Assembly: GCF_003790525.1 (NCBI RefSeq) | Contig: NZ_CP033635.1 | Origin: Escherichia coli | GTDB lineage: Bacteria; Pseudomonadota; Gammaproteobacteria; Enterobacterales; Enterobacteriaceae | Length of the DNA: 64,000 nt | Direction: 5' to 3' (one strand) | In this document: positions 3,148 through 39,621 of the stretch, piece after piece | Numbering within the stretch: position 1 is the stretch's first letter | Layout of the letters: each line of letters begins with the position of its first letter | Notes under the pieces: generated by a model | The model's database searches: none | What the model was told of the DNA's origin: nothing | What the model saw: only the letters and a program-made list of their open reading frames with translations | Made by a program: the position numbers and the translations under genes

Positions 3148-3211
3148 AAGAAAACGCCTGTACTAAAACCGACCCGTGGTACAGGCGAAGAATACGGGTC
3201 TACATCGGAAG
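3148..3211 (-). ncRNA. rydC: RydC small regulatory RNA (Hfq-dependent, pseudoknot)
   Basis: Reverse complement reads CTTCCGATGTAGACCCGTATTCTTCGCCTGTACCACGGGTCGGTTTTAGTACAGGCGTTTTCTT, the 64-nt RydC sequence as I recall it, in the cybB-ydcA intergenic region. Confidence 0.8.
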
Positions 3212-3626: not shown

Positions 3627-3822
<196 letters not shown>

Positions 3823-3834
<12 letters not shown>

Positions 3835-3885
3835 TCGTTGGCCTCGGTTGATAGAAATATTGGTCGGGGCCTTCGTCTTTCTGAT
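3823..3885 (+). ncRNA. sokB: SokB antisense RNA (antitoxin of hokB/mokB); boundaries approximate
   Basis: Position antisense to the mokB RBS/start as in hok/sok loci; exact 5'/3' ends not determinable by eye. Confidence 0.35.
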
Positions 3886-4108
3886 TCCCGGTTAGCCTGA
3901 AAACAGAAAGTCTCAGGCACCCGTGAGCATCCTATGTGGTTTCCTTAAGGACGAAAATAATCACCTGACGAAATTGCGTGCTGTTTTCCAGAATTTTTCG
4001 TCATTCGGTTTAGCCAGTTTAATCATTCGTTACTCTCTTCATTCCAATGGCATTATTCTTCTCTGCCATAATTGTTGTAAAAATGTGACGCAAAGAGGTT
4101 TTTGGTCG

Positions 4109-4135: not shown

Positions 4136-4174
4136 CTTTCTATCAGGAGTAAACCTGGAAGAGAGACAACGGTA

Positions 4175-5815: not shown

Positions 5816-5825
5816 AAATGTTCAA

Positions 5826-5852
5826 GGAAGGGATCGACAGATCCCTTCACCT
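5826..5852 (+). terminator. Terminator hairpin after trg (aagggatc-gaca-gatccctt)
   Basis: 8-bp perfect stem 11 bp after the trg stop, between convergent trg and ydcI. Confidence 0.55.
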
Positions 5853-5853
5853 T

Positions 5854-6777
5854 TCAGAACGGCATTGATTTTCGAATAGCGTTAATCATCAACTGGCAAC
5901 CAGAAGAGAACGTCGCATCTACGCGGGTCAGTATTCCAATCGGTTCGCCTGCACCATGTCCCGGAACAGGCAGGGCCACCAGCGTGGCATGACGCAGGTC
6001 GTCTTTTACAGCGCCAGAAGGGACAAACCACACGTAGTCGTATTCAACCGTAAGTTGACGAGATAGCGAAGCAGACAGCGTTTCGATACAACCCGAAGGA
6101 ATTTTACATCCCTGGCTCTGCACTAATGCATCTGAATGCTGGCGTGGCGCAGTGCCTTCTGGTGATACAACGACCGGCCATTCCAGCACCCGGCTTAGCG
6201 TTACGTTCTCCTGAAGTAGCGGATGATTGGGGCGGACAACCAGCTTCAGCGATTCAAGAAACAGCAGTTCGTAATTAAGCCCGGTCATCAGTTCAGGATC
6301 TGACATCCGACCAATGCCGATATCGATTTCCCCGGTTTTTAAACCCGCCAGAATCATAGGGTTACTCATTGTCGCAACTTGCAAGGTCGTCTCTTTTTGT
6401 TGCTGATGAAACTGACCTATAACCGAAGGTAATATCCCCAGTGCCGCAGTAGGTAGTGCACCAACCCTGACGATATCATTATTAAGACCTTCTTTACGAT
6501 GAAGCGACTGTCCAGCAGTGTTGATGGCGTCAAGAACTCTGACTGCATGCGTTAAAAATTGTTCGCCGGGTAAGGTAAGTTGCGCCCCCTGACGACCACG
6601 CTCAAACAAGCGAGCGCCCGTCAGCTGCTCCAGTTCATTCAATGTCTTAGAGAGCGCAGGTTGACTCAAATTAAGGGTTTCAGCCGCGCGCCCCAAAGTT
6701 CCTTGTTGTGCGACAGCTACGAATGTATGAAGGTGGCGCAAACGGATGCGCTGACTAAACAGACTATTTTTTTCCAT
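5854..6777 (-). CDS. ydcI: LysR-family transcriptional regulator
   Basis: ORF 5854..6918; start chosen at MEKNSLFSQRIRLRHLHTFVAVAQQG (307 aa); N-terminal HTH plus LysR substrate-binding domain. Confidence 0.88.
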   Translation of the reverse strand: MEKNSLFSQRIRLRHLHTFVAVAQQGTLGRAAETLNLSQPALSKTLNELEQLTGARLFERGRQGAQLTLPGEQFLTHAVRVLDAINTAGQSLHRKEGLNNDIVRVGALPTAALGILPSVIGQFHQQQKETTLQVATMSNPMILAGLKTGEIDIGIGRMSDPELMTGLNYELLFLESLKLVVRPNHPLLQENVTLSRVLEWPVVVSPEGTAPRQHSDALVQSQGCKIPSGCIETLSASLSRQLTVEYDYVWFVPSGAVKDDLRHATLVALPVPGHGAGEPIGILTRVDATFSSGCQLMINAIRKSMPF

Positions 6778-8561: not shown

Positions 8562-10217
8562 ATGGATCGTAGACGATTTATTAAAGGTTCAATGGCTATG
8601 GCCGCCGTGTGCGGTACCAGCGGCATTGCTTCTCTTTTTTCTCAGGCGGCATTCGCGGCAGATTCTGATATTGCCGACGGGCAAACCCAGCGTTTTGACT
8701 TCTCCATTCTACAGTCAATGGCGCACGACTTAGCGCAAACAGCGTGGCGTGGTGCGCCGCGTCCGTTACCTGACACTCTGGCGACAATGACGCCGCAGGC
8801 TTATAACAGTATTCAATACGACGCCGAAAAATCGCTCTGGCATAACGTTGAGAACCGTCAACTGGACGCTCAGTTCTTCCATATGGGAATGGGATTCCGT
8901 CGCCGCGTTCGTATGTTTTCTGTAGATCCCGCAACACATCTGGCGCGTGAAATTCACTTTCGCCCGGAGTTGTTCAAATACAACGATGCGGGTGTTGATA
9001 CCAAACAATTAGAAGGGCAAAGCGATCTCGGTTTTGCCGGTTTTCGCGTGTTTAAAGCCCCCGAACTGGCGCGCCGTGATGTCGTATCATTCCTCGGTGC
9101 GAGTTATTTCCGCGCCGTTGACGACACATATCAATACGGTCTATCGGCTCGCGGCCTGGCGATCGACACTTACACCGACAGTAAAGAAGAGTTCCCCGAC
9201 TTTACCGCCTTCTGGTTTGATACGGTAAAACCGGGGGCAACCACCTTTACCGTTTATGCGTTGCTCGATAGCGCCAGCATTACTGGTGCCTATAAGTTCA
9301 CTATCCATTGCGAGAAAAGTCAGGTGATTATGGATGTGGAAAATCACCTGTATGCGCGCAAAGACATTAAACAGCTGGGCATTGCGCCGATGACCAGTAT
9401 GTTCAGCTGCGGTACTAATGAACGTCGGATGTGCGACACCATTCATCCGCAAATCCATGACTCTGATCGTTTGTCCATGTGGCGGGGCAACGGCGAGTGG
9501 ATTTGTCGTCCGCTGAACAATCCGCAAAAATTGCAGTTCAATGCTTACACCGACAACAACCCGAAAGGGTTTGGTTTATTGCAACTGGATCGTGATTTCT
9601 CCCATTATCAGGACATTATGGGCTGGTATAACAAACGCCCAAGTCTGTGGGTGGAACCGCGTAACAAGTGGGGTAAGGGCACCATCGGCCTGATGGAAAT
9701 CCCAACAACGGGCGAAACGCTGGATAACATTGTCTGCTTCTGGCAGCCAGAAAAAGCTGTAAAAGCGGGTGATGAGTTTGCATTCCAGTATCGTCTGTAC
9801 TGGAGTGCGCAACCGCCTGTTCATTGCCCATTAGCGCGCGTTATGGCGACGCGTACCGGCATGGGTGGTTTCCCGGAAGGTTGGGCTCCAGGTGAACACT
9901 ATCCCGAAAAATGGGCGCGTCGTTTTGCCGTCGATTTCGTTGGTGGTGATCTGAAAGCTGCCGCGCCAAAAGGCATTGAGCCGGTGATTACGCTTTCCAG
10001 TGGGGAAGCGAAGCAAATCGAAATTCTCTATATTGAACCCATTGATGGTTATCGTATTCAGTTTGACTGGTATCCGACTTCGGACTCCACTGATCCGGTC
10101 GATATGCGGATGTATCTGCGTTGTCAGGGCGACGCTATCAGTGAAACATGGCTGTATCAGTATTTCCCGCCAGCGCCCGATAAACGTCAGTATGTTGACG
10201 ACCGCGTGATGAGTTAA
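8562..10217 (+). CDS. opgD: Glucans biosynthesis protein D (periplasmic, Tat signal RRRFIKGS)
   Basis: 551-aa ORF with twin-arginine signal peptide and MdoG/MdoD-family sequence. Confidence 0.93.
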
Positions 10218-10356
10218 TCGTTTTTTCTTCGGCACCTTCTTCGGGAGGTGCCGTCTGGTTAAACACGATCCCGCTCGCATTTTTCCCTAAGTTAAATGAG
10301 TAATCTGATGGTGTGTATTTCAGATACACCTTGTCAGCCACTAACAGGGAGTGCGT

Positions 10357-10581
10357 ATGTTTCCAGAATATCGAGATTTAATATCCCGTCTGAAAAACGA
10401 AAATCCTCGCTTTATGTCCTTGTTCGATAAACACAATAAACTTGATCATGAAATTGCCAGAAAGGAAGGTTCCGACGGTCGAGGGTACAATGCGGAAGTG
10501 GTCCGCATGAAAAAACAAAAGCTACAGTTAAAAGATGAGATGCTCAAAATCCTGCAGCAGGAGAGCGTCAAAGAGGTGTAA
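10357..10581 (+). CDS. ydcH: Small protein YdcH (DUF465); ORF track starts 6 nt earlier at GTG 10351
   Basis: MFPEYRDLISRLKNENPRFMSLFDKHNKLDHEIARKEG...; AGGGA RBS 8 nt upstream of ATG 10357. Confidence 0.85.
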   Translation: MFPEYRDLISRLKNENPRFMSLFDKHNKLDHEIARKEGSDGRGYNAEVVRMKKQKLQLKDEMLKILQQESVKEV

Positions 10582-10589
10582 ACTTTCCT

Positions 10590-10615
10590 AAGCCGCCAGC
10601 TAGGCGGCTTTTTTA
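10590..10615 (+). terminator. Rho-independent terminator after ydcH (agccgcc-agct-aggcggct + T5)
   Basis: GC stem followed by a T-run immediately after the ydcH stop. Confidence 0.7.
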
Positions 10616-10643
10616 ACAACTGCATGGAGTGACTGGAGATAAG

Positions 10644-11183
10644 ATGACCGAAACGATAAAAGTAAGTGAATCACTTGAATTACATGCTGTTGCAGAAAGT
10701 CATGTCACACCTCTTTATCAGTTAATCTGTAAAAATAGAACCTGGCTACAGCAGTCGCTAAACTGGCCGCAGTTTGTTCAAAGTGAAGAGGACACGCGAA
10801 AAACGGTGCAGGGCAATGTAATGTTGCATCAACGCGGATATGCCAAAATGTTCATGATTTTCAAAGAAGATGAACTTATCGGCGTTATCTCGTTTAATCG
10901 TATTGAACCACTGAATAAAACCGCTGAAATCGGCTACTGGCTGGACGAATCTCATCAGGGGCAGGGGATCATTTCTCAGGCGCTGCAGGCATTGATTCAT
11001 CATTACGCTCAGTCTGGTGAACTTAGACGCTTCGTGATCAAATGTCGGGTGGACAATCCGCAAAGCAACCAGGTCGCTTTGCGCAATGGTTTTATCCTTG
11101 AAGGTTGCCTGAAACAGGCTGAGTTTCTGAATGATGCCTATGATGATGTGAACTTATACGCGCGTATTATCGATTCACAATAA
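10644..11183 (+). CDS. rimL: Ribosomal-protein-L7/L12 serine N-acetyltransferase
   Basis: 179-aa GNAT acetyltransferase starting [16 protein letters not shown]; GGAG RBS. Confidence 0.9.
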
Positions 11184-12155
11184 CCCTGCCAGCGGCGTTC
11201 GCGTAATGCGCTCCTCGCCGTTAATGACTTTTGGACCACGGACATGAACCGTGTCGCCATCAAAGGCTTCAACGACGGCGTGGTCGGTTAACTCCACATG
11301 GTTTTCAATTATCACCGCACCTGTAATACGGCTCTCACCTTGTATGACAACGTGCTCGTCGAGCAGAATCGGTCCGCCACGTACCACGGCATTTCCGCCA
11401 ATCAAGACATGATGTTTTAACACACAATTACCTTCCACAATGGCATATTCCGCCACCTGCGAACTGTAATGAATCGTCGGAATGGCATCTTCTTCTATGC
11501 CAGCTTTCACCTGCGCGTGACCGTAGACTTTAGCACAATCGCATAGCCAGACGTTGTTCTCTTCATTACCCTCAATACTGGCAAAATCAAAAACTTCGGC
11601 GCGATGTTCAATAAAAGCATACCGGACGACGGCATCGCCATAAATTTGTGCCTGGTGGACAATCCGCGAGGCGCTAACCCTCGCGCGATCATAAATTTGT
11701 AGCAGGAGTTGATGGTCGGGCGTTAAGCCTTGTGCGGCGACGATCATAGAATGTTGATCAATTAAGGCGTGACCAAATATTCTACATTGACCGCAAACTA
11801 ATGAGTCACTAATGGTGACACTGTCACTTATATATGCACCCTGGCTGATTTCACTATTATCGATCCAGACATTATCCGTTGCGTAAACCTCTCCCCACAG
11901 CACGCTGGTGCCGGTGATACGCGTATTCCCGGAAATCACCGTTCCGCCGAACGCAATAGCATTCTGGTCGTAAATCCAGCAATTTCCTTCCTGTGCTAAC
12001 ACCGTTTCGCGATCGATCCAGCCGCCAGCGGTTCCTGCTATCACATCGTTAAAATCGCTAATGGCGATAATCTGCCGTAATAACACATTTTTTTTAGTGC
12101 CATCTTCCTGATAACTAAAGGCTCGCTGTTCTTCACTTAGACGATATTTGCGCAT
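11175..12155 (-). CDS. ydcK: Hexapeptide-repeat (left-handed beta-helix) putative acyltransferase YdcK
   Basis: 326-aa ORF with repeated [IVL]G-x-x-x-x hexapeptide pattern; 3' end overlaps rimL by 9 bp. Confidence 0.85.
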
Positions 12156-12278
12156 AGCGTTTTCCCACAGGTGACTTACTATAACCGTAGCAAATTCTGC
12201 GGCTCTGGCTATGCTCGAGAAAATTCCATAAAATGCATTTCAAATATACTTTATAAATTAAACAAAATGAGTAAGAAG

Positions 12279-13271
12279 ATGCAGAGCGATAAAGTGCTCA
12301 ATTTGCCGGCAGGCTACTTTGGTATTGTGTTGGGGACGATAGGGATGGGATTTGCCTGGCGCTATGCCAGCCAGGTTTGGCAGGTCAGCCACTGGTTGGG
12401 GGATGGGCTGGTGATTCTGGCGATGATCATCTGGGGATTATTGACTGGCGCATTTATTACCCGACTCATACGCTTTCCGCATAGCGTGCTGGCAGAAGTG
12501 CGCCATCCAGTGCTGAGCAGTTTTGTGAGTTTGTTTCCGGCAACGACGATGCTGGTGGCGATTGGTTTTGTTCCGTGGTTTCGCCCACTGGCGGTGTGCC
12601 TGTTCAGTTTTGGTGTCGTGGTTCAGTTGGCTTATGCCGCCTGGCAAACTGCGGGATTATGGCGCGGATCTCACCCTGAAGAAGCTACCACGCCTGGACT
12701 GTATCTGCCGACAGTTGCCAACAACTTTATCAGCGCAATGGCCTGTGGTGCGTTGGGCTACACCGACGCCGGTCTGGTGTTTTTAGGCGCAGGCGTTTTC
12801 TCATGGCTAAGCCTGGAACCGGTGATCTTGCAGCGTCTGCGCAGTTCGGGAGAATTACCCACGGCACTGAGGACATCACTCGGCATTCAGCTCGCTCCTG
12901 CGCTGGTGGCCTGTAGTGCCTGGCTGAGCGTCAACGGCGGCGAGGGTGACACGCTGGCGAAAATGCTTTTCGGTTATGGACTGCTGCAACTGCTGTTTAT
13001 GCTACGTCTGATGCCATGGTATCTCTCCCAGCCATTTAATGCTTCATTCTGGAGTTTCTCGTTCGGCGTATCTGCACTGGCAACCACCGGTTTGCATCTG
13101 GGGAGTGGCAGCGATAATGGATTTTTCCATACGCTGGCGGTGCCGCTGTTTATCTTTACCAATTTTATTATTGCAATACTGCTCATCCGTACTTTTGCGC
13201 TTCTGATGCAGGGAAAATTGTTAGTCAGAACCGAGCGCGCCGTTTTAATGAAAGCAGAGGACAAAGAATGA
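12279..13271 (+). CDS. tehA: Tellurite resistance / dicarboxylate-type anion transporter TehA
   Basis: ORF 12171..13271; start at [19 protein letters not shown] (330 aa), 10-TM protein. Confidence 0.92.
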
Positions 13272-13861
13272 TCATTCGTGACGAAAACTATTTTACTGAT
13301 AAATATGAATTAACCCGCACACACTCTGAAGTGCTGGAAGCGGTGAAAGTGGTTAAACCGGGTAAAACGCTGGATCTGGGCTGTGGCAATGGTCGTAACA
13401 GTCTTTACCTGGCAGCCAATGGTTATGATGTTGACGCATGGGATAAAAATGCCATGAGTATCGCCAACGTCGAGCGCATTAAGTCCATTGAAAATCTGGA
13501 TAATTTACACACCCGGGTCGTTGATCTGAATAACCTCACATTTGATGGACAGTACGATTTTATTCTTTCGACTGTGGTGCTGATGTTCCTTGAGGCTAAA
13601 ACCATCCCAGGGCTGATTGCCAATATGCAACGTTGCACTAAACCTGGCGGTTACAACCTGATTGTGGCGGCGATGGATACCGCTGATTATCCATGTACCG
13701 TCGGCTTCCCGTTTGCCTTCAAAGAGGGAGAATTACGTCGATATTACGAAGGCTGGGAGAGGGTGAAATACAATGAGGACGTCGGCGAGCTGCACCGCAC
13801 CGACGCCAACGGTAATCGTATTAAACTGCGTTTCGCCACGATGCTGGCACGTAAAAAATGA
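13268..13861 (+). CDS. tehB: Tellurite methyltransferase TehB (SAM-dependent)
   Basis: 197-aa ORF with SAM motif [15 protein letters not shown]; start overlaps the tehA stop (ATGA). Confidence 0.93.
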
Positions 13862-14163
13862 TCCGGTAAGAACAAAGCGCGTGAAAATTCCCCACGCTGA
13901 GATGGTTTACTGTTCTTCTTTTCGGTAAGCATATTTTTAATCAAAAGGATGTGAAATTAATCACAGTAGTCGAAGTTTTTCATCAGATTAACGCACTGAT
14001 ATTTAACTACTGATGATTGACTTAGCCCCTTTTTCGGCATTGACTATGTCGTCTGTAAAGGGGCTGAAAAATTTATTTTCACCAACACTTTTTTTGCCAC
14101 AACACGAAGCGGCGCTTTTTGCTATAACTTAAAAAGTAATATAATCATCTCAGGAAACTATTC

Positions 14164-14832
14164 ATGCGTACCACATCATTTGCGAAAGTTGCAGCTTTAT
14201 GCGGCTTGTTGGCTCTGTCTGGTTGTGCCTCTAAAATCACCCAGCCAGATAAATATTCTGGTTTTTTAAACAATTACTCTGATTTAAAAGAAACAACCTC
14301 AGCAACAGGTAAACCTGTTTTACGTTGGGTAGACCCGAGTTTTGATCAAAGCAAATATGACAGCATCGTCTGGAACCCAATCACTTATTATCCGGTACCA
14401 AAACCTTCTACCCAGGTAGGGCAGAAAGTTCTGGATAAAATTTTGAACTATACCAACACCGAAATGAAAGAAGCGATAGCGCAGCGTAAACCACTGGTTA
14501 CCACCGCTGGGCCGCGTAGTCTGATTTTCCGTGGGGCCATTACCGGTGTAGATACCAGCAAAGAAGGGCTGCAATTCTATGAAGTGGTTCCTGTTGCATT
14601 AGTGGTTGCGGGGACGCAAATGGCTACAGGCCACCGTACCATGGATACTCGCTTGTATTTTGAAGGTGAGCTGATTGATGCAGCGACTAATAAACCGGTT
14701 ATCAAAGTCGTTCGTCAGGGCGAAGGTAAAGACCTGAATAACGAAAGTACGCCAATGGCTTTCGAAAATATTAAACAAGTTATTGATGACATGGCGACCG
14801 ATGCCACCATGTTTGACGTTAACAAAAAGTAG
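14164..14832 (+). CDS. ydcL: Lipoprotein YdcL (DUF3313)
   Basis: 222-aa ORF with lipoprotein signal peptide (LLALSGC lipobox). Confidence 0.88.
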   Translation: MRTTSFAKVAALCGLLALSGCASKITQPDKYSGFLNNYSDLKETTSATGKPVLRWVDPSFDQSKYDSIVWNPITYYPVPKPSTQVGQKVLDKILNYTNTEMKEAIAQRKPLVTTAGPRSLIFRGAITGVDTSKEGLQFYEVVPVALVVAGTQMATGHRTMDTRLYFEGELIDAATNKPVIKVVRQGEGKDLNNESTPMAFENIKQVIDDMATDATMFDVNKK

Positions 14833-14840
14833 TTCCAGAC

Positions 14841-14866
14841 GCGCCATCGTTAGATGGCGCTTTTTA
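14841..14866. terminator. Bidirectional terminator between ydcL and the ydcO 3' end (gcgccatc-gtta-gatggcgc + T5)
   Basis: 8-bp perfect stem plus T-run 9 bp after the ydcL stop. Confidence 0.7.
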
Positions 14867-15168
14867 TTATCGGTTTCTGTCAGCGATTAAATTCAACACC
14901 ACGTAACAAACGCCTCCGGCAATTAATCCCCAAAACGCAGAACCAATCCCGACCAGCGTCAATCCACTTGCCGTTACCAGAAATGCCACCACCGCCGCGT
15001 CGCGCTCACGCTCATTATGCAGCGCCTGATACAAACTGCCGCCAATGGTACTCAACAGCGCCAGACCTGCCAGCATCTGGATCCAACTTACGGGCAGGGT
15101 AGTCATCATCCCGGTAATGGCACTACCAAACAGACCTGCGAGCAAATAGAAAATGCCTGCAACGGCAG
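14867..15168 (-). pseudogene. ydcO: ydcO (BenE-family benzoate transporter) C-terminal fragment, separated from the rest of the gene by IS4
   Basis: Minus-strand frame ...LIGITAVAGIFYLLAGLFGSAITGMMTTLPVSWIQMLAGLALL...NLIADRNR* is open up to the IS4 left end; hydrophobic transporter C-terminus. Confidence 0.8.
15157..15168. repeat. IS4 target-site duplication, left copy (CTGCAACGGCAG)
   Basis: Identical 12-mer directly abuts both IS4 termini (second copy 16594..16605). Confidence 0.85.
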
Positions 15169-16593
15169 TAATGCCGATCAGTTAAGGATCAGTTGACCGA
15201 TCCAGTGGCTGTGTAAGAATCCGGAAACGCTCACTTGTTTCCGGATTTTTTATGCACATTGGACAGGCTCTTGATCTGGTATCCCGTTACGATTCTCTGC
15301 GTAACCCACTGACTTCTCTGGGGGATTACCTCGACCCCGAACTCATCTCTCGTTGCCTTGCCGAATCAGGTACTGTAACGCTACGCAAGCGCCGTCTTCC
15401 CCTCGAAATGATGGTCTGGTGTATTGTTGGCATGGCGCTTGAGCGTAAAGAACCTCTTCACCAGATTGTGAATCGCCTGGACATCATGCTGCCGGGCAAT
15501 CGCCCCTTCGTTGCCCCCAGTGCCGTTATTCAGGCCCGCCAGCGCCTGGGAAGTGAGGCTGTCCGCCGCGTGTTCACGAAAACAGCGCAGCTCTGGCATA
15601 ACGCCACGCCGCATCCGCACTGGTGCGGCCTGACCCTGCTGGCCATCGATGGTGTGTTCTGGCGCACACCGGATACACCAGAGAACGATGCAGCCTTCCC
15701 CCGCCAGACACATGCCGGGAACCCGGCGCTCTACCCGCAGGTCAAAATGGTCTGCCAGATGGAACTGACCAGCCATCTGCTGACGGCTGCAGCCTTCGGC
15801 ACGATGAAGAACAGCGAAAATGAGCTTGCTGAGCAACTTATAGAACAAACCGGCGATAACACTCTGACGTTAATGGATAAAGGTTATTACTCACTGGGAC
15901 TGTTAAATGCCTGGAGCCTGGCGGGAGAACACCGCCACTGGATGATACCTCTCAGAAAGGGAGCGCAATATGAAGAGATCAGAAAACTGGGTAAAGGCGA
16001 TCATCTGGTGAAGCTGAAAACCAGCCCGCAGGCACGAAAAAAGTGGCCGGGACTGGGAAATGAAGTGACAGCCCGCCTGCTGACCGTGACGCGCAAAGGA
16101 AAAGTCTGCCATCTGCTGACGTCGATGACGGACGCCATGCGCTTCCCCGGAGGAGAAATGGCGGATCTGTACAGTCATCGCTGGGAAATCGAACTGGGAT
16201 ACAGGGAGATAAAACAGACGATGCAACTGAGCAGGCTGACGCTGAGAAGTAAAAAACCGGAGCTTGTGGAGCAAGAGCTGTGGGGTGTCTTACTGGCTTA
16301 TAATCTGGTGAGATATCAGATGATTAAAATGGCAGAACATCTGAAAGGTTACTGGCCGAATCAACTGAGTTTCTCAGAATCATGTGGAATGGTGATGAGA
16401 ATGCTGATGACATTGCAGGGCGCTTCACCGGGACGTATACCGGAGCTGATGCGCGATCTTGCAAGTATGGGACAACTTGTGAAATTACCGACAAGAAGGG
16501 AAAGGGCCTTCCCGAGAGTGGTAAAGGAGAGGCCCTGGAAATACCCCACAGCCCCGAAAAAGAGCCAGTCAGTTGCTTAACTGACTGGCATTA
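15169..16593 (+). mobile_element. IS4 insertion sequence (1425 bp) with 18-bp imperfect terminal inverted repeats
   Basis: Left end TAATGCCGATCAGTTAAG, right end CTTAACTGACTGGCATTA; encodes a 442-aa IS4-family transposase; flanked by 12-bp direct repeats. Confidence 0.9.
15252..16580 (+). CDS. insG: IS4 transposase (DDE; Y-x2-R-x3-E-x6-K signature [16 protein letters not shown])
   Basis: 442-aa ORF beginning [28 protein letters not shown], which I recognise as IS4 InsG. Confidence 0.9.
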
Positions 16594-16605
16594 CTGCAAC
16601 GGCAG
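16594..16605. repeat. IS4 target-site duplication, right copy (CTGCAACGGCAG)
   Basis: Identical to 15157..15168. Confidence 0.85.
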
Positions 16606-17476
16606 CGGCCAGCCAACGTTGATCTTTATCCGGATGCGCTTCCGGGCTTTGGCAAATAGCCGCGGTGATTGCCGCAATACCGACGGAATAAACGCCGAAA
16701 GGGGAAAAAACCAGTGCCAGCAATCCAGTAAATACAATTAATGGCGAAACAGGAGCCGAATATCCGGCTGCTTTCATTGCTGCGATACCCGGTGCGTTTT
16801 GCGATGCCATCGTCACCAGAAAAAGGGGGAGTGCAACGCTCAGGCTGTGAGCAAACGAAAAATCAGGGCTAATATAAGTGGGGAGAACGGGTTTAAAGAC
16901 AACATCAGTTGTGACAATGTCACCTTGCGCGATAACGATCACGACCCCAATAATCATCGCGGCAATTACCGCATAGCGCGGCGCAACGGCCCTGGTTGCC
17001 AGCCATACCAGCAACATACTGCCACACAACGTAAATTGACCATCCAGGCTCGCAAACGCCTGTAAACCAAAGCGTAATAAAATCCCGGCAAGCATTGCCG
17101 CCGCAAGCGAGTGCGGAATAATGCGCATCAGATGAGCAAAGAGTCCCGTTATGCCGCAGAGGACTATTAACGCGTTGGTGACAATAAAAACGCCGATGGT
17201 TTCGTTAAGTGTTAGTCCCTGCAATCCGGTGACCAACAAAGCCGCGCCAGGCGTTGACCATGCGGTGAGAACAGGTACGCGATACCATAATGTCAGAGCC
17301 AGCGTACTGACGCCCATTGCCAGCCCCAGCGCCGTCATCCAGCCAGAGATTTGTGCAGTGGTGGCTCCGGCGACAATCGCTGCTTGCCAGATTATTGCCG
17401 CTGAACTGGCGTAGCCAATTAATACCGCCAGAAACCCCGCCAGTAGCGTGGGTGGAGGAATAGAAAACAGACGCAT
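16594..17476 (-). pseudogene. ydcO: ydcO (BenE-family transporter) N-terminal portion, truncated by IS4
   Basis: Start MRLFSIPPPTLLAGFLAVLIGYASS with GAGG RBS; the frame runs into the IS4 right end and stops inside it; joining with 14867..15168 after removing one 12-bp repeat restores a ~391-codon gene. Confidence 0.8.
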
Positions 17477-17567
17477 AGTCACCTCGTGCGTTATAGCGTA
17501 CAGGCACCGTAGCATTTGTCCGTTATAACGCACAAGTGATAAACTTCCGTTTTGCCGGAGGAGTCGC

Positions 17568-18104
17568 ATGGAAAATCTCGCTCGCTTTTTATCCACCACA
17601 CTTAAACAACTACGCCAGCAGCGCGGCTGGAGTCTTTCGCGACTGGCCGAAGCGACGGGCGTTTCTAAAGCAATGTTAGGGCAGATTGAGCGTAATGAAT
17701 CCAGCCCGACGGTCGCGACATTATGGAAAATTGCCACCGGGTTGAACGTACCATTTTCAACATTTATTTCTCCGCCGCAGTCCGCTACACCTTCAGTTTA
17801 TGATCCACAACAGCAGGCGATGGTGATCACTTCGCTGTTTCCTTATGATCCACAACTCTGCTTTGAACACTTCTCGATTCAGATGGCATCTGGTGCAATA
17901 AGCGAATCGACGCCCCATGAGAAGGGGGTAATCGAACATGTCGTCGTCATTGATGGACAACTTGATCTGTGCGTTGATGGTGAATGGCAGAGCCTTAATT
18001 GTGGGGAAGGCGTTCGATTTGCTGCAGACGTCACGCATATCTATCGTAATGGTGGGGAGCAAACCGTACATTTTCATTCCCTCATCCATTACCCGCGCAG
18101 TTAA
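17568..18104 (+). CDS. sutR: HTH-XRE plus cupin-domain transcriptional regulator
   Basis: 178-aa ORF with N-terminal XRE helix-turn-helix (LGQIERNESSPTVATLWKIATGL). Confidence 0.88.
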   Translation: MENLARFLSTTLKQLRQQRGWSLSRLAEATGVSKAMLGQIERNESSPTVATLWKIATGLNVPFSTFISPPQSATPSVYDPQQQAMVITSLFPYDPQLCFEHFSIQMASGAISESTPHEKGVIEHVVVIDGQLDLCVDGEWQSLNCGEGVRFAADVTHIYRNGGEQTVHFHSLIHYPRS

Positions 18105-18176
18105 GCGGGAAAACTATTTCGCAACGTCGCGCTTGTGGCTAAAATAGCAGCCATTTTTCAGCTACTGGATAAGAAT

Positions 18177-20138
18177 GTGACCGTATCTTCTCATCGACTT
18201 GAACTGTTAAGCCCGGCACGCGATGCCGCCATTGCCCGCGAAGCTATTTTGCACGGTGCCGATGCTGTTTATATCGGCGGACCTGGTTTTGGTGCCCGTC
18301 ATAATGCCAGTAATAGCCTGAAAGATATTGCCGAGTTGGTGCCGTTTGCCCATCGTTATGGTGCAAAAATTTTCGTCACGCTTAACACCATTTTGCATGA
18401 TGATGAGCTGGAACCCGCACAACGGCTGATTACCGACCTCTATCAGACCGGCGTCGATGCGCTGATTGTTCAGGATATGGGGATTCTGGAACTTGATATT
18501 CCGCCGATTGAACTGCACGCCAGTACGCAGTGCGACATTCGTACAGTAGAAAAAGCGAAGTTCCTCTCTGATGTTGGCTTCACGCAGATTGTGCTGGCGC
18601 GAGAGCTGAATCTTGAGCAGATCCGCGCGATTCACCAGGCCACGGACGCGACCATTGAATTCTTTATTCATGGCGCACTGTGCGTGGCCTATTCGGGTCA
18701 GTGCTACATTTCTCATGCGCAAACAGGGCGTAGCGCCAACCGTGGCGATTGCTCGCAGGCGTGCCGTTTGCCATACACATTGAAAGACGATCAGGGGCGG
18801 GTGGTTTCCTATGAAAAACATCTGCTGTCGATGAAAGATAACGATCAGACTGCCAACCTCGGCGCGCTGATTGATGCTGGCGTACGCTCCTTCAAGATTG
18901 AAGGGCGTTACAAAGATATGAGCTACGTGAAGAATATCACCGCCCATTATCGTCAGATGCTGGATGCCATTATTGAAGAACGTGGCGATCTAGCGCGCGC
19001 TTCATCAGGTCGTACTGAACATTTCTTTGTTCCATCGACGGAAAAGACTTTCCACCGTGGTAGCACAGATTATTTTGTGAATGCCCGTAAAGGCGATATT
19101 GGCGCGTTCGATTCGCCGAAATTTATCGGCCTGCCGGTGGGTGAAGTATTGAAAGTGGCGAAAGATCATCTCGATGTTGCCGTTTCCGAACCACTGGCAA
19201 ATGGCGATGGCCTGAACGTGATGATTAAACGTGAAGTCGTCGGTTTTCGTGCCAATACGGTAGAGAAAACCGGAGAAAATCAGTACCGCGTCTGGCCCAA
19301 TGAAATGCCAGCAGAGTTGCACAAAATTCGCCCGCATCACCCACTAAACCGTAATCTTGATCATGACTGGCAGCAGGCACTGACAAAAACCTCTAGCGAA
19401 CGTCGGGTGGCGGTAGACATTGAACTGGGCGGCTGGCAGGAACAACTGATTCTGACCCTCACCAGTGAAGAGGGTGTCAGCATCACGCATACGCTGGACG
19501 GGCAGTTCGACGAAGCCAATAACGCCGAAAAAGCAATGAACAATCTAAAGGATGGTCTGGCAAAACTGGGGCAAACCATCTATTACGCCCGCGATGTGCA
19601 AATTAATTTGCCGGGTGCGCTGTTTGTACCAAACAGTCTGCTAAACCAGTTCCGCCGTGAAGCCGCCGATATGCTTGATGCTGCGCGTCTTGCCAGTTAC
19701 CAGCGCGGCAGCCGTAAACCGGTTGCTGATCCTGCGCCGGTTTATCCGCAAACGCATCTGAGTTTCCTCGCGAACGTATACAACCAGAAAGCGCGTGAAT
19801 TTTATCATCGCTATGGTGTGCAACTGATTGACGCGGCGTATGAGGCACATGAAGAGAAGGGCGAAGTCCCGGTGATGATCACCAAGCATTGTCTGCGCTT
19901 TGCCTTCAATCTGTGCCCGAAACAGGCGAAAGGCAATATCAAAAGCTGGAAGGCAACGCCAATGCAACTGGTTAACGGTGATGAAGTGTTAACGCTGAAA
20001 TTTGATTGCCGCCCATGCGAGATGCACGTCATTGGCAAAATCAAAAATCACATACTGAAAATGCCGTTACCGGGAAGCGTAGTGGCATCCGTAAGTCCGG
20101 ATGATCTGCTGAAAACATTGCCGAAGCGAAAAGGGTAA
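18177..20138 (+). CDS. ydcP: Peptidase U32-family protein YdcP
   Basis: ORF 18135..20138; probable GTG start at 18177 (653 aa); U32 collagenase-like family. Confidence 0.85.
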   Translation: MTVSSHRLELLSPARDAAIAREAILHGADAVYIGGPGFGARHNASNSLKDIAELVPFAHRYGAKIFVTLNTILHDDELEPAQRLITDLYQTGVDALIVQDMGILELDIPPIELHASTQCDIRTVEKAKFLSDVGFTQIVLARELNLEQIRAIHQATDATIEFFIHGALCVAYSGQCYISHAQTGRSANRGDCSQACRLPYTLKDDQGRVVSYEKHLLSMKDNDQTANLGALIDAGVRSFKIEGRYKDMSYVKNITAHYRQMLDAIIEERGDLARASSGRTEHFFVPSTEKTFHRGSTDYFVNARKGDIGAFDSPKFIGLPVGEVLKVAKDHLDVAVSEPLANGDGLNVMIKREVVGFRANTVEKTGENQYRVWPNEMPAELHKIRPHHPLNRNLDHDWQQALTKTSSERRVAVDIELGGWQEQLILTLTSEEGVSITHTLDGQFDEANNAEKAMNNLKDGLAKLGQTIYYARDVQINLPGALFVPNSLLNQFRREAADMLDAARLASYQRGSRKPVADPAPVYPQTHLSFLANVYNQKAREFYHRYGVQLIDAAYEAHEEKGEVPVMITKHCLRFAFNLCPKQAKGNIKSWKATPMQLVNGDEVLTLKFDCRPCEMHVIGKIKNHILKMPLPGSVVASVSPDDLLKTLPKRKG

Positions 20139-20186
20139 AACGTCAGTTTTCGGGTTACTCACCACTCATCAAATCTGCATGATATT

Positions 20187-20222
20187 GCCTGGCGGGTAAG
20201 GCGTCATGCCGCATCCGGCAAC
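20187..20222. repeat. REP (repetitive extragenic palindromic) element
   Basis: GCCTGGCGGGTAAGGCGTCATGCCGCATCCGGCA, REP-like palindrome between convergent ydcP and yncJ. Confidence 0.6.
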
Positions 20223-20229
20223 AAATGAC

Positions 20230-20460
20230 TCAACGCTGTCCCGCTTCTGGTTTGCGCGATTTTTGCCAGTAAAAATGCTCGCGCAAACCTTCCGCCGACT
20301 CTTCCGCCACAGCACGCAATTCATCGCTGTCCGCTTCATGACGCAGCTGATGATCCACATTCTTTACCCACATAAATTCATGTCCTTTGTGCCCTGCCAT
20401 GAGTTGTCCTGAGAACAGTGCACACGTTAATAAGACAACCGATAACGCCTTCGAAAACAT
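20230..20460 (-). CDS. yncJ: Small exported protein YncJ (DUF2554)
   Basis: 76-aa ORF with signal peptide MFSKALSVVLLTCALFSGQLMA. Confidence 0.85.
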   Translation of the reverse strand: MFSKALSVVLLTCALFSGQLMAGHKGHEFMWVKNVDHQLRHEADSDELRAVAEESAEGLREHFYWQKSRKPEAGQR

Positions 20461-20681
20461 CCCGCCACCTTTTTCTAACCTTTTGCCGCTATGATGCCAA
20501 TCGTTTCTTGAGGTTATTATTCAGTTTTGCAAATTAGCGCAAAGAAATTCTGGAATCTTCCTTCCTGATTTTGCATTGCATTCTGCCGTTGCGGCGATTT
20601 AGTGCTATTTTCGAGCAAATTACACACGGAGGTAAACACTAATGTTTACTTTGTTGATATACTCAGCGGCAGGGAGGCGAT

Positions 20682-20858
20682 GTGAAACAAAGCGAGTTCA
20701 GACGTTGGCTCGAATCTCAGGGCGTCGATGTAGCGAATGGCAGCAACCATTTAAAACTGAGGTTTCATGGGAGGCGCAGTGTCATGCCGCGTCACCCCTG
20801 CGATGAGATTAAAGAACCATTGCGTAAAGCAATCCTGAAACAACTCGGTTTGAGTTAA
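20682..20858 (+). CDS. hicA: Type II toxin HicA (mRNA interferase), GTG start
   Basis: 58-codon frame MKQSEFRRWLESQGVDVANGSNHLKLRFHGRRSVMPRHPCDEIKEPLRKAILKQLGLS; below ORF-track cutoff; immediately upstream of hicB. Confidence 0.88.
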   Translation: MKQSEFRRWLESQGVDVANGSNHLKLRFHGRRSVMPRHPCDEIKEPLRKAILKQLGLS

Positions 20859-20882
20859 TCGCCAATTAAAAAGGTTAATGAC

Positions 20883-21320
<438 letters not shown>

Positions 21321-21398
21321 TAACAGTTAATGAAAAGTTGTCATTTTTAACAACTGATATAGACTGCCGAATCACCTGCACATAATAACGATTCGATA

Positions 21399-22805
21399 AT
21401 GAAAAAATACCAGCAGCTTGCAGAACAATTACGCGAGCAGATTGCGTCGGGTATCTGGCAACCCGGAGATCGTTTGCCTTCGTTGCGTGACCAGGTGGCA
21501 CTTTCTGGCATGAGCTTTATGACCGTGAGCCATGCCTATCAGTTGCTCGAAAGTCAGGGATATATTATCGCACGACCGCAGTCGGGTTATTACGTTGCGC
21601 CACAGGCAATAAAAATGCCGAAAGCGCCAGTCATTCCAGTCACTCGAGATGAAGCAGTCGATATCAACACTTATATTTTTGATATGTTGCAGGCCAGTCG
21701 CGATCCGTCGGTCGTTCCGTTTGCCTCGGCCTTTCCCGACCCGCGACTTTTCCCCCTCCAACAACTAAACCGCTCGCTGGCGCAGGTAAGCAAAACCGCC
21801 ACAGCGATGAGCGTGATTGAAAACTTACCGCCAGGAAACGCAGAACTGCGTCAGGCTATTGCTCGTCGCTATGCCTTACAGGGCATCACTATTTCTCCAG
21901 ATGAAATTGCCATTACCGCCGGGGCGTTAGAGGCATTAAACCTCAGTTTGCAAGTGGTAACTGAACCGGGCGATTGGGTGATAGTAGAGAATCCTTGTTT
22001 CTACGGCGCTTTGCAGGCGCTGGAGCGGTTACGGCTGAAGGCGTTATCGGTGGCGACGGACGTTAAAGAAGGGATCGATCTTCAGGCGCTGGAACTGGCG
22101 TTGCAGGAGTATCCGGTGAAAGCGTGCTGGCTGATGACTAATAGCCAGAATCCACTCGGATTTACCTTAACACCGCAAAAAAAAGCACAACTGGTGGCGT
22201 TGCTCAATCAGTACAACGTAACGCTGATTGAAGATGACGTTTACAGCGAACTTTATTTTGGACGGGAAAAACCGCTGCCTGCGAAAGCGTGGGATCACCA
22301 CGATGGTGTTTTGCATTGCTCTTCGTTTTCGAAATGTCTGGTGCCTGGTTTTCGTATTGGTTGGGTCGCCGCCGGAAAACATGCACGTAAAATTCAACGC
22401 TTGCAGTTGATGAGTACGCTTTCCACCAGCTCACCGATGCAGCTTGCGCTGGTGGATTACCTTTCTACTCGCCGATACGATGCTCATCTTCGTCGTCTGC
22501 GTCGCCAGCTTGCGGAACGTAAACAACGCGCCTGGCAGGCTTTGCTGCGTTATCTGCCTGCGGAAGTCAAAATTCATCACAATGACAGCGGTTATTTTCT
22601 CTGGCTGGAGCTCCCCGAGCCGTTAGATGCAGGAGAATTAAGCCTGGTGGCACTGACGCATCATATCAGTATTGCGCCGGGTAAAATGTTTTCTACCGGT
22701 GAAAACTGGTCACGTTTTTTTCGTTTTAATACCGCGTGGCAGTGGGGAGAACGTGAAGAACAGGCGGTAAAACAATTAGGCAAACTTATTCAAGAACGGC
22801 TGTAA
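21399..22805 (+). CDS. ydcR: MocR/GntR-family regulator with aminotransferase (PLP) domain
   Basis: 468-aa ORF: N-terminal GntR HTH (LPSLRDQVALSGMSFMTV) plus class I aminotransferase-like domain. Confidence 0.88.
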   Translation: MKKYQQLAEQLREQIASGIWQPGDRLPSLRDQVALSGMSFMTVSHAYQLLESQGYIIARPQSGYYVAPQAIKMPKAPVIPVTRDEAVDINTYIFDMLQASRDPSVVPFASAFPDPRLFPLQQLNRSLAQVSKTATAMSVIENLPPGNAELRQAIARRYALQGITISPDEIAITAGALEALNLSLQVVTEPGDWVIVENPCFYGALQALERLRLKALSVATDVKEGIDLQALELALQEYPVKACWLMTNSQNPLGFTLTPQKKAQLVALLNQYNVTLIEDDVYSELYFGREKPLPAKAWDHHDGVLHCSSFSKCLVPGFRIGWVAAGKHARKIQRLQLMSTLSTSSPMQLALVDYLSTRRYDAHLRRLRRQLAERKQRAWQALLRYLPAEVKIHHNDSGYFLWLELPEPLDAGELSLVALTHHISIAPGKMFSTGENWSRFFRFNTAWQWGEREEQAVKQLGKLIQERL

Positions 22806-23049
22806 TAGCGTTTAATTTAATTCCTCTCAGGATGGGTAATATGAATTTCGAATAGCAGTCATATTTCCTAACTCCTTGTCTATACTCCAGAATATAACCT
22901 TACAGAGGGCATAATGCGCGGTAGCTCACAACCTGATTAAATTTTCTCAGGGGCGAAGGTGTGCCTGCTAGCCGCCGTCTATGGTTAAACAAGGAGATAT
23001 TTTTACGGCACGGCGGCTGAACAATTAATTACGACAGGAGTAAGACCTT

Positions 23050-24195
23050 ATGAGCAAGATTTTTGCCCGCAGCAGCCTGTGTGCGCTCACCATGACAATA
23101 ATGACCGCTCACGCCGCCGAACCGCCTACCAATTTAGATAAACCGGAAGGGCGACTGGATATTATCGCCTGGCCGGGATACATCGAACGCGGACAAACTG
23201 ATAATCAATACGACTGGGTAACGCAATTCGAAAAAGAGACAGGCTGCGCGGTGAATGTGAAAACCGCCGCGACTTCCGATGAAATGGTCAGTCTGATGAC
23301 CAAAGGGGGTTACGATCTGGTTACGGCATCCGGCGATGCCTCGCTGCGCCTGATTATGGGCAAACGCGTGCAGCCGATTAATACCGCATTGATTCCCAAC
23401 TGGAAAGCGCTCGATCCGCGCGTGGTTAAAGGCGACTGGTTTAACGTTGGCGGCAAAGTTTACGGCACACCTTACCAATGGGGGCCGAACCTGCTGATGT
23501 ACAACACTAAAACCTTCCCGACGCCGCCGAATAGCTGGCAAGTGGTTTTTGTTGAGCAGAATCTGCCGGACGGCAAGAGCAATAAAGGCCGCGTTCAGGC
23601 TTATGATGGCCCTATCTACATTGCGGACGCTGCGTTGTTCGTTAAAGCCACTCAGCCGCAGTTGGGCATCAGCGATCCGTATCAACTCACCGAAGAACAG
23701 TACCAGGCGGTGCTGAAAGTGCTGCGCGATCAACATAGTTTGATCCATCGCTACTGGCATGACACTACCGTGCAAATGAGCGATTTCAAAAACGAGGGTG
23801 TAGTTGCTTCCAGTGCATGGCCCTATCAGGCCAACGCCCTGAAAGCCGAAGGCCAGCCTGTCGCTACCGTTTTCCCGAAAGAGGGCGTTACCGGTTGGGC
23901 TGACACCACCATGCTACATAGCGAAGCGAAACATCCGGTTTGCGCCTACAAATGGATGAACTGGTCATTAACCCCAAAAGTGCAGGGCGATGTGGCGGCC
24001 TGGTTTGGCTCGCTACCAGTAGTGCCGCAAGGGTGTAAAGCCAGTCCGTTATTAGGCGAGAAAGGTTGTGAAACAAACGGTTTTAACTATTTCGATAAAA
24101 TCGCCTTCTGGAAAACGCCTATAGCAGAAGGGGGCAAGTTTGTTCCCTACAGTCGCTGGACGCAGGATTACATTGCCATTATGGGTGGTCGCTAA
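23050..24195 (+). CDS. ydcS: ABC transporter periplasmic binding protein (polyamine type)
   Basis: 381-aa ORF with signal peptide, PotD/PotF-like; first gene of ydcSTUV-patD cluster. Confidence 0.9.
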   Translation: MSKIFARSSLCALTMTIMTAHAAEPPTNLDKPEGRLDIIAWPGYIERGQTDNQYDWVTQFEKETGCAVNVKTAATSDEMVSLMTKGGYDLVTASGDASLRLIMGKRVQPINTALIPNWKALDPRVVKGDWFNVGGKVYGTPYQWGPNLLMYNTKTFPTPPNSWQVVFVEQNLPDGKSNKGRVQAYDGPIYIADAALFVKATQPQLGISDPYQLTEEQYQAVLKVLRDQHSLIHRYWHDTTVQMSDFKNEGVVASSAWPYQANALKAEGQPVATVFPKEGVTGWADTTMLHSEAKHPVCAYKWMNWSLTPKVQGDVAAWFGSLPVVPQGCKASPLLGEKGCETNGFNYFDKIAFWKTPIAEGGKFVPYSRWTQDYIAIMGGR

Positions 24196-38853: not shown

Positions 38854-38868
38854 GGTAATGACTCCAAC

Positions 38869-39566: not shown

Positions 39567-39621
39567 TGGAGCACCTCAAAAACACCATCATATACTAAAT
39601 CAGTAAGTTGGCAGCATCACC

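What the first reader, a model, noticed from the sequence alone, without database searches (positions are those of the whole stretch)
14867..17476. IS4 insertion with perfect 12-bp target duplication disrupts the BenE-family transporter gene ydcO
A complete IS4 (1425 bp, 18-bp terminal repeats, 442-aa transposase) is flanked by an identical 12-mer (CTGCAACGGCAG). The minus-strand ydcO frame is open on both sides and rejoins in phase when the element and one repeat copy are removed. The perfect duplication and intact reading frames indicate a recent transposition. As I recall, K-12 has an IS609-type insQ gene near this locus instead, so the mobile content differs.
Basis: seen in the sequence. 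Interest (0 to 1): 0.45.

Follow-up and report, generated by a model that had tools for sequence, protein, structure and literature searches.

The report
IS4 insertion splitting the ydcO gene
A well-known E. coli jumping gene (IS4) sits inside the putative transporter gene ydcO and inactivates it. The same insertion is inherited by a whole clone of E. coli (the SMS-3-5 / ST354 type) and is already annotated in public genomes, so it is real but ordinary.

Summary
A 1425-bp IS4 lies at 15169-16593. It has 18-bp terminal repeats (16/18 matching) and an intact 442-aa DDE transposase. It is flanked by the exact 12-mer CTGCAACGGCAG, which occurs nowhere else in the window. Removing the element and one repeat copy restores a 390-aa, full-length BenE-family YdcO.

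The window matches E. coli SMS-3-5 (ST354, phylogroup F), where RefSeq already annotates this as two ydcO pseudogene halves around an IS4. The same insertion occurs in 24 of 5426 complete E. coli genomes. All 24 have flanks identical over 3 kb and nearly identical over 24 kb. The nearest genomes with an empty site are only 99.2% identical there and carry IS609 (insQ) between ydcL and ydcO, as K-12 does. So this is one ancestral event fixed in a widespread clone, not a strain-specific recent jump.

In 22 IS4 sites I compared, IS4 prefers terminator-like palindromes (A-run, GC-rich hairpin, T-run). The ydcO site has the A-run arm and a palindromic core but no T-run.

Hairpins followed by U-rich tracts at both IS4 ends should stop incoming transcription; the right-end one should stop the ydcO transcript. 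No outward promoter was found. Interest is low; this is already known.

The parts
15169..16593 (+). IS4 insertion sequence, 1425 bp
   Evidence: 7 differences from K-12 IS4 (1426 bp), namely one T missing in a T-run at about 15245 and 6 substitutions. The boundaries match the K-12 annotation..
15157..15168 (.). Left copy of the 12-bp target-site duplication CTGCAACGGCAG
   Evidence: There are only two copies in the window. K-12 ydcO has a single copy.
16594..16605 (.). Right copy of the 12-bp target-site duplication CTGCAACGGCAG
15169..15186 (+). IS4 left terminal inverted repeat (IRL), 18 bp
   Evidence: 16/18 complementary to IRR.
16576..16593 (-). IS4 right terminal inverted repeat (IRR), 18 bp
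15252..16580 (+). IS4 transposase gene, 442 aa, intact
   Evidence: One search gives the ORF. Nterm_IS4 (E = 3e-33) and DDE_Tnp_1 (E = 8.7e-32); 2 aa differences from K-12 InsG. The motif [15 protein letters not shown], which fits Y(2)R(3)E(6)K, is visible in the translation; the exact protein is indexed in 6926 blocks of the public assembly collection.
15193..15220 (+). Promoter-like site upstream of the transposase gene (TTGACC, 16-nt spacer, TG-AAGAAT)
   Evidence: This is a consensus match only; its function is inferred.
15215..15250 (+). 14-bp hairpin followed by a U-run, directly upstream of the transposase ATG
   Evidence: (I4) and 59: the 94-nt leader folds at -34.1 kcal/mol, z = -4.7. 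Inferred to stop or sequester transcripts that enter from outside the element.
16564..16589 (-). Inward-facing terminator-like hairpin in the right end of IS4 (11 pairs, then UCUUUUU)
   Evidence: It lies in the path of the ydcO transcript and is inferred to terminate it about 30 nt inside the element.
16594..17476 (-). ydcO 5' fragment (codons 1-294 plus 1 nt)
   Evidence: RefSeq lists it as a ydcO pseudogene 'missing C-terminus'.
16577..17476 (-). Truncated reading frame left by the insertion: 294 native residues, then VMPVS, then a stop inside IS4 (299 aa)
14867..15168 (-). ydcO 3' fragment (residues 291-390 and the stop; the first 12 bp are the duplicated target)
   Evidence: RefSeq lists it as a ydcO pseudogene 'missing N-terminus'. 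No promoter or start codon of its own was identified.
14841..14869 (.). Terminator hairpin shared by ydcL and ydcO, plus the ydcO stop codon. The site where K-12 carries IS609 (between 14867 and 14868) is empty and seamless here.

Best explanation
A single copy of IS4 transposed once into codon 291-294 of ydcO in an ancestor of the E. coli clone that includes SMS-3-5 (ST354, phylogroup F). Every sampled member of that clone has inherited it vertically.

Mechanism. This part is inferred from what is established for the IS4 family, not shown here. The DDE transposase cuts the element out of a donor site. It joins the two 3'-OH ends to target strands 12 bp apart, and gap repair creates the 12-bp direct repeat.

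Site choice (shown by comparison with other IS4 copies). The site resembles IS4's preferred target. It has an A-run 3 bp to the left of a small GC-rich palindrome (CTGC..GCAG). It lacks the usual T-run on the right.

Consequence (inferred from sequence). ydcO is a null pseudogene. Its transcript enters the right end of IS4 and meets a hairpin followed by a U-rich tract. Its frame stops after 294 native residues plus 5 foreign ones, and 96 C-terminal residues are lost. ydcO is monocistronic and converges on ydcL, so no polar effect on neighbouring genes is expected. The element itself looks transposition-competent, with an intact transposase and intact ends.
For: Structure of the insertion:
- The anatomy and the in-phase rejoining are shown.
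- Window 8867-23476 is identical to SMS-3-5 NC_010498.1. There PGAP (NCBI's annotation pipeline) annotates two ydcO pseudogene halves flanking an 'IS4-like element IS4 family transposase'.
- SMS-3-5 is ST354 (PMC9174282), and ST354 is listed under phylogroup F (PMC12817139).

A single ancestral event:
- 24 of 5426 complete genomes carry the full 2610-bp structure at 99.9-100% identity.
- The same 24 genomes, and only those, have 100% identical 3-kb flanks. The next-best genomes are 99.2% identical, with intact ydcO and IS609 next to it.
- Over 24.2 kb of right flank, bit scores imply 13 genomes with no differences from the window's flank and the rest with about 1-5. The nearest non-carrier is 98.5% identical.
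- Strain 23CRST013 differs by 1 SNP in 28 kb of flank.

Target preference, from 22 distinct IS4 sites (frequencies are over 23 aligned rows, one site being represented twice):
- A at position -18 in 22 of 23 rows.
- T at position +18 in 20 of 23 rows.
- The duplicated segment is usually CAGC..GCTG.
- The ydcO site has AAA at -19..-17 but AGC at +18..+20.

Other points:
- Hairpins at both IS ends.
- IS4 still transposes in K-12 mutation-accumulation lines, with 8 new insertions (PMC5009759).
Against: - No expression data are available. Loss of function, transcript termination and the absence of neighbour effects are all inferred from sequence.
- A truncated 299-aa YdcO could conceivably keep or gain some activity.
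- The sample is complete genomes only. Clone members with an empty site could exist among draft genomes.
- ST354 membership was confirmed from the literature for SMS-3-5 only. It was not confirmed for the other 23 carriers or for the window's own strain.
- The window's strain is not the SMS-3-5 reference itself. It has an extra IS1 at 38854-39621.
Confidence: 0.93

Rival explanations
1. The 24 carriers acquired IS4 in ydcO independently, because the site is an IS4 hot spot. The shared insertion would then be homoplasy rather than common descent.
For: IS4 does have hot spots. The eno, bamD and typA terminators carry IS4 in both orientations, or with different repeat lengths, in different genomes.
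Against: All carriers share the same orientation, the same 12-bp repeat and 100% identical 3-kb flanks. No genome outside this flank-identical group has the insertion, although the 12-mer target is conserved in K-12 and ydcO is present in about 5400 genomes. The ydcO site also lacks the T-run arm found at most sites, so it is not a strong hot spot.
Confidence: 0.03
2. The insertion is a very recent event specific to this strain. This is the literal reading of the first-stage comment.
For: The repeats are perfect, both ydcO fragments are undecayed and the transposase is intact.
Against: The same insertion is present in 24 independently assembled complete genomes. Their hosts are human, chicken, dog, pangolin and water. 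Among those I fetched, the countries are Ecuador, China and Japan. SMS-3-5 itself was published in 2008 (reference 34 of PMC12817139).
Confidence: 0.02
3. The insertion was selected rather than neutral. Either loss of YdcO, or read-through from IS4 into sutR on the + strand, changed the SutR sulfur-utilisation regulon and benefited the clone. This is compatible with the best explanation and adds a fitness claim to it.
For: The insertion is fixed in every sampled clone member. SutR binds the ydcO/ydcN spacer in genomic SELEX, a genome-wide in vitro binding screen (PMC5934670). The + strand hairpin at the right end of IS4 is not followed by a T-run, and only one weak terminator-like site (16754-16769) lies on the + strand between IS4 and sutR.
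Against: Fixation in a clone is equally expected from neutral hitch-hiking. No outward promoter-like site was found at the IS ends. The function of YdcO is uncharacterised, and I found no E. coli phenotype for it in 16 papers.
Confidence: 0.1

Closest known systems
The ydcO::IS4 allele of E. coli SMS-3-5 as annotated in RefSeq NC_010498.1 (ECSMS35_RS08800 / RS08795 / RS08790)
   Same: It is identical base for base over window 8867-23476. The IS4, the repeats and the two ydcO pseudogene halves are the same.
   Different: Nothing differs at this locus. Elsewhere the window's strain differs from the reference by an IS1 at 38854-39621.
IS4 of E. coli K-12 (insG, NC_000913.3 4502090-4503515, 1426 bp)
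   Same: The termini are the same and the duplication is also 12 bp (CAGAACCAAGAT in K-12). Both have a 442-aa transposase. The elements are 99.5% identical.
   Different: The chromosomal site is different. The window copy has one T fewer in the leader T-run and 6 substitutions, which give 2 amino-acid changes (A304 and L326 here, G and R in K-12).
The K-12 arrangement ydcL-IS609(insQ)-ydcO
   Same: The gene neighbourhood is the same: tehAB-ydcL-ydcO-sutR-rlhA.
   Different: K-12 has an intact ydcO with IS609 inserted inside its stop codon (TAA becomes TAT-TGA, giving 391 aa). The window has a seamless empty IS609 site, a 390-aa frame and IS4 inside the gene instead.
Classical polar IS4 insertions in galT and the pheST attenuator (Klaer et al. 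1981; Mayaux et al. 1984; from my own knowledge, papers not held)
   Same: They also interrupt genes with duplications of 11-13 bp and are strongly polar. As I recall it, the target rule is AAA-N20-TTT. It fits K-12's own site and most of the 22 sites compared here.
   Different: The ydcO site satisfies only the AAA half of that rule.

Membership tests
IS4 (the element IS4; IS4 family, IS4 subgroup) | Length of about 1426 bp and near-identity to reference IS4 | tested here: met
   1425 bp, with 7 differences from K-12 IS4.
IS4 (the element IS4; IS4 family, IS4 subgroup) | 18-bp imperfect terminal inverted repeats beginning TAATGCC | tested here: met
   16/18 complementary and identical to the K-12 termini.
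IS4 (the element IS4; IS4 family, IS4 subgroup) | A single ORF encoding a DDE transposase with the IS4 N-terminal domain | tested here: met
   Pfam PF13006 (114 bits) and PF01609 (111 bits), both above the curated cut-offs.
IS4 (the element IS4; IS4 family, IS4 subgroup) | Y(2)R(3)E(6)K motif (family hallmark given in PMC2266710) | tested here: met
   [15 protein letters not shown] is read directly in the translation.
IS4 (the element IS4; IS4 family, IS4 subgroup) | Target duplication of about one helix turn (11-13 bp for IS4) | tested here: met
   An exact 12-bp repeat. Other IS4 copies examined had repeats of 11-14 bp.
IS4 (the element IS4; IS4 family, IS4 subgroup) | [quoted passage not shown] | tested here: inconclusive
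   The left arm (AAA at -19..-17) and a palindromic core are present. The right-arm T-run is absent (AGC at +18..+20).
IS4 (the element IS4; IS4 family, IS4 subgroup) | Transposition activity of this copy | not testable with these tools
   The intact ends and ORF suggest competence. Activity would need a mating-out or papillation assay.
BenE-family transporter YdcO | Full-length match to the BenE profile after the gene is reconstructed | tested here: met
   PF03594, E = 1.6e-159, profile positions 3-378 of 378.
BenE-family transporter YdcO | Orthology to K-12 ydcO by sequence and synteny | tested here: met
   381 of 390 residues are identical to K-12 YdcO, and the gene lies between ydcL and sutR.
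BenE-family transporter YdcO | Benzoate (or other substrate) transport activity | not testable with these tools
   The papers found describe it only as a 'predicted benzoate transporter' (PMC5493296).

The most novel reading that the evidence does not exclude
The fixed ydcO::IS4 allele is not neutral. On this reading, loss of YdcO, or IS4-originated read-through into the divergently arranged regulator gene sutR, rewired sulfur-utilisation control and contributed to the success of the globally spread ST354 clone. Nothing in my evidence excludes this, but nothing supports it beyond fixation in the clone.
Probability: 0.05. Interest if true: 0.4.

Novelty: already known. Interest (0 to 1): 0.1.

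Why it matters
It matters little beyond housekeeping.

- The allele is a clean, PCR-typable marker for the SMS-3-5 / ST354-like clone. It was present in 24 of 24 clone members and absent from the other roughly 5400 complete genomes.
- It shows that ydcO is dispensable in a lineage found in humans, poultry, dogs and water.
- The side analysis of 22 IS4 sites illustrates the element's marked preference for bidirectional-terminator-like palindromes. This explains why most IS4 copies sit harmlessly between convergent genes, and why an intragenic hit such as ydcO is an atypical half-site event.

Tried and rejected
The consensus scan found only the transposase promoter-like site and sites inside ydcO that exist in all E. 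coli. I rejected it as unsupported. Driving ydcL in sense is geometrically impossible.
- AAA-N20-TTT as a full description of this site. It fits K-12's IS4 site, but the ydcO site has only the AAA half.
- Motif rarity. AAANNNCWGCNNNNGCWG matches only twice in the window, at the occupied ydcO site and at 42512-42529, against 0.23 expected. The test is partly circular because the motif was derived partly from this site.
- Literature. The SMS-3-5 genome paper (PMC2566207) is not held. A search for IS4/galT target papers found nothing. Sixteen papers mentioning ydcO gave no E. coli phenotype.
- The first non-ydcO hits (L005-L007) were selected by flank similarity and are therefore biased. I added 8 sites chosen from a ranking by IS4 identity alone, plus 10 copies from one multi-copy genome, to obtain a sample not chosen by flank similarity.
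- Technical point. L003, L006, L007, L009, L010 and L020 could therefore not be analysed by script. L006 and L007 were read with get_sequence and aligned with DNA alignment instead. For L009 and L010 the bit scores stood in for a direct comparison. Window positions 43101-64000 and 1-866 were not compared with SMS-3-5.
- Rfam scan of the window. It found only sok, RydC and the fdnG SECIS element, none related to the finding.

Full report
**1. Observation**

Reading 14500-17900 and a script show CTGCAACGGCAG at 15157-15168 and 16594-16605. These are the only two copies on either strand of the window. The neighbouring bases differ, so the repeat is exactly 12 bp.

The 1425 bp between them (15169-16593) start TAATGCCGATCAGTTAAG and end with the complement of TAATGCCAGTCAGTTAAG. 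These are 18-bp inverted repeats matching at 16 of 18 positions.

The only long ORF is 15252-16580 on the + strand, 442 aa. It matches Pfam Nterm_IS4 and DDE_Tnp_1 in full. It contains [15 protein letters not shown], which fits the Y(2)R(3)E(6)K hallmark of the IS4 family (PMC2266710).

Against K-12 IS4 (annotated 4502090-4503515, 1426 bp), the element has one T fewer in the T-run just before the ATG and 6 substitutions. These give 2 amino-acid changes. This accounts for 1425 bp rather than 1426 bp.

**2. The interrupted gene**

Deleting the IS and one repeat gives a 1173-nt minus-strand ORF of 390 aa.

- It matches Pfam BenE over profile positions 3-378 of 378, E = 1.6e-159.
- It has 9 substitutions relative to K-12 YdcO.
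- K-12 has the 12-mer once, in the identical context, so the second copy is a genuine target duplication.
- As it stands, the frame from the ATG at 17476 runs 294 native codons, then VMPVS and a stop inside IS4 (299 aa).
- 96 C-terminal residues are lost. A crude hydropathy scan puts the break inside a hydrophobic segment (290-308).

**3. Where it comes from and who else has it**

Window 8867-23476 is identical to E. coli SMS-3-5 NC_010498.1. PGAP (NCBI's annotation pipeline) already annotates two ydcO pseudogene halves around an 'IS4-like element IS4 family transposase' there. SMS-3-5 is ST354 (PMC9174282), and ST354 is listed under phylogroup F (PMC12817139).

- The whole 2610-bp structure is present at 99.9-100% identity in 24 of 5426 complete genomes.
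- A 3-kb reconstructed empty-site query is 100% identical, but split by the IS, in exactly those 24 genomes.
- The next-best genomes are 99.2% identical. They have an intact ydcO and an IS609 (tnpA pseudogene plus insQ) between ydcL and ydcO.
- Over 24.2 kb of right flank, bit scores imply 13 genomes with no differences from the window's flank and the rest with about 1-5. The nearest non-carrier is 98.5% identical.
- Strain 23CRST013 differs by 1 SNP in 28 kb of flank.

The carriers therefore form one tight clone in which the insertion is fixed. The event predates the clone's common ancestor. About 0.75 differences per 24 kb, combined with a typical E. coli clock of 1-4e-7 per site per year (my own knowledge), suggests decades to a couple of centuries. 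That figure is a rough inference only. Carrier hosts are human, chicken, dog, pangolin and water. Among those I fetched, the countries are Ecuador, China and Japan.

**4. K-12 comparison**

K-12 annotates IS609 at 1503161-1504908, between ydcL and ydcO. Its junctions show that it sits inside the ydcO stop codon: TAA becomes TAT-TGA, which gives the 391-aa K-12 protein. The window has the seamless empty site ctttttat|tatcgg at 14867|14868.

**5. Why this site**

I compared 22 distinct IS4 insertion sites.

- Three were hits. They were chosen by flank similarity and are therefore biased.
- One was K-12's own copy.
- Eight were picked from a ranking by IS4 identity alone. One of these repeats K-12's site, and another sits in the eno terminator in the opposite orientation to one of the hits.
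- Ten were copies of the exact same transposase in one genome.

The aligned flanks (23 rows, because K-12's site appears twice) and the position table show:

- A at -18 in 22 of 23 rows;
- T at +18 in 20 of 23 rows;
- duplicated cores that are usually CAGC..GCTG;
- whole sites that read as bidirectional-terminator-like palindromes, for example eno AAAAATGC-CAGCCTTCGGGCTG-GCATTTTTT and bamD AAAACGG-CAGCCTTGAGCTG-CCGTTTTTTT.

The eno, bamD and typA sites are occupied in both orientations in different genomes, so real hot spots exist. [quoted passage not shown] It also agrees with the AAA-N20-TTT rule that I recall from Mayaux et al. 1984 (paper not held).

The ydcO site (AAAAtgc-CTGCAACGGCAG-cggccagc) has the A-run arm and a palindromic core, but AGC where the T-run should be. 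It is an atypical half-site.

**6. How it works**

Shown by the data:
- the anatomy of the element and the gene;
- the broken reading frame;
- clonal inheritance;
- the match to IS4's target pattern.

Inferred from family knowledge:
- cut-and-paste DDE transposition with cuts staggered by 12 bp.

Inferred from sequence:
- Hairpins followed by U-rich tracts face inward at both IS ends.
  - On the minus strand at 16589-16564 there are 11 pairs followed by UCUUUUU. This lies in the path of the ydcO transcript.
  - On the + strand at 15215-15250 there are 14 pairs followed by U6, directly before the transposase ATG. Its left arm overlaps the -10 of the promoter-like site at 15193-15220.
- These hairpins would stop or sequester transcripts that enter the element from outside, which fits the classical polarity of IS4.
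- ydcO is monocistronic and converges on ydcL at a shared hairpin (14841-14860), so no polar effect on neighbouring genes is expected.
- No outward promoter-like site was found.
- Only sutR lies in sense orientation downstream of the transposase gene, and no strong + strand terminator intervenes. Weak read-through into sutR cannot be excluded.

**7. Rivals**

- Recurrent hot-spot insertion is unlikely. All carriers share one orientation, one repeat and identical flanks, and no other lineage has the insertion.
- A strain-specific recent jump is contradicted by the 24 carriers.
- An adaptive or regulatory role is possible, but nothing supports it beyond fixation in the clone.

**8. Verdict**

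It is already annotated in public records. It is best described as a clone-marking IS4 pseudogenisation of ydcO. Novelty: already known. Interest: low.

Noticed in passing
window 38854-39621 (repeats at 38846-38853 and 39622-39629): A 768-bp IS1 with an 8-bp duplication (AAAAAATA) interrupts the GGDEF-domain gene between yncG and the alkyl/aryl-sulfatase gene. It is absent at this site from the SMS-3-5 reference and from all 24 ydcO::IS4 carriers. Its junction is found in none of the 5426 complete genomes. The window's strain is therefore a clone member other than the reference, and this IS1 hit is younger than the IS4 one.
   Followed up: yes
window 14867|14868; L002 (K-12) 4162-5909: In K-12, IS609 sits inside the ydcO stop codon (TAA becomes TAT-TGA), which lengthens YdcO to 391 aa. 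The window has the seamless empty site and a 390-aa frame. IS200/IS605 elements leave no duplication, so 'never inserted' and 'precisely excised' cannot be told apart.
   Followed up: yes
L005-L007, L012-L019, L021-L030 (IS4 flanks): IS4 copies lie overwhelmingly in bidirectional-terminator-like palindromes at gene 3' ends: eno, bamD, typA, rpoD-mug, degS-mdh, adhE-tdk and ravA-kup. Duplications are 11-14 bp. The eno, bamD and typA sites are hit in both orientations in different genomes, so they are independent events at hot spots.
   Followed up: partly
window 15169-15181 and 16581-16593, compared with target arms in L005, L007, L017, L024: The IS4 right end (TAATGCCAGTCAG) shares AATGCCAG with the left target arm plus core of several sites (AAATGCCAGC at the eno terminator and at the site downstream of dicB; AAATGCCTGC at ydcO). 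This may mean the transposase recognises targets that resemble its own ends, or it may be coincidence. It was not tested.
   Followed up: no
window ~15240-15251; L012-L019: The T-run before the transposase ATG is polymorphic, giving elements of 1425, 1426 and 1427 bp. In T7 copies PGAP calls a 448-aa product from an upstream TTG. In some T6 copies (Seattle 1946, MS8345) PGAP labels the gene 'frameshifted', although the 442-aa ATG frame is probably intact there as it is in this window (not translated for those two copies).
   Followed up: partly
L008 (23CRST013), corresponding to window 16166, 16334, 16385: This carrier differs from the window at 3 positions inside IS4 but at only 1 position in 28 kb of flank. 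Two of the three changes are the K-12 IS4 alleles, which suggests gene conversion between IS4 copies within a genome.
   Followed up: partly
L009 (strain CM2), IS4 in ydcO: In this carrier the IS4 transposase is annotated as frameshifted and the region is 2 bp longer. This is either real decay of the element or homopolymer sequencing error.
   Followed up: no
window 16595-17515 versus 16594-17476: RefSeq annotations disagree on the ydcO start. SMS-3-5 and two other carriers use a start 39 nt upstream (window 17515). K-12 and strain KFu014 use the ATG at 17476.
   Followed up: no
window 42512-42529: This is the only other match in the window to the loose IS4-target motif AAANNNCWGCNNNNGCWG (AAAAAGCAGCACTTGCTG, in the pptA region). 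It is unoccupied and has no T-run.
   Followed up: no
window 3148-3211, 3771-3922, 59599-59657: Rfam hits above the gathering score: the RydC sRNA, the sok antitoxin RNA (next to hokB) and the selenocysteine insertion element of fdnG. These are ordinary features of this chromosomal region.
   Followed up: no
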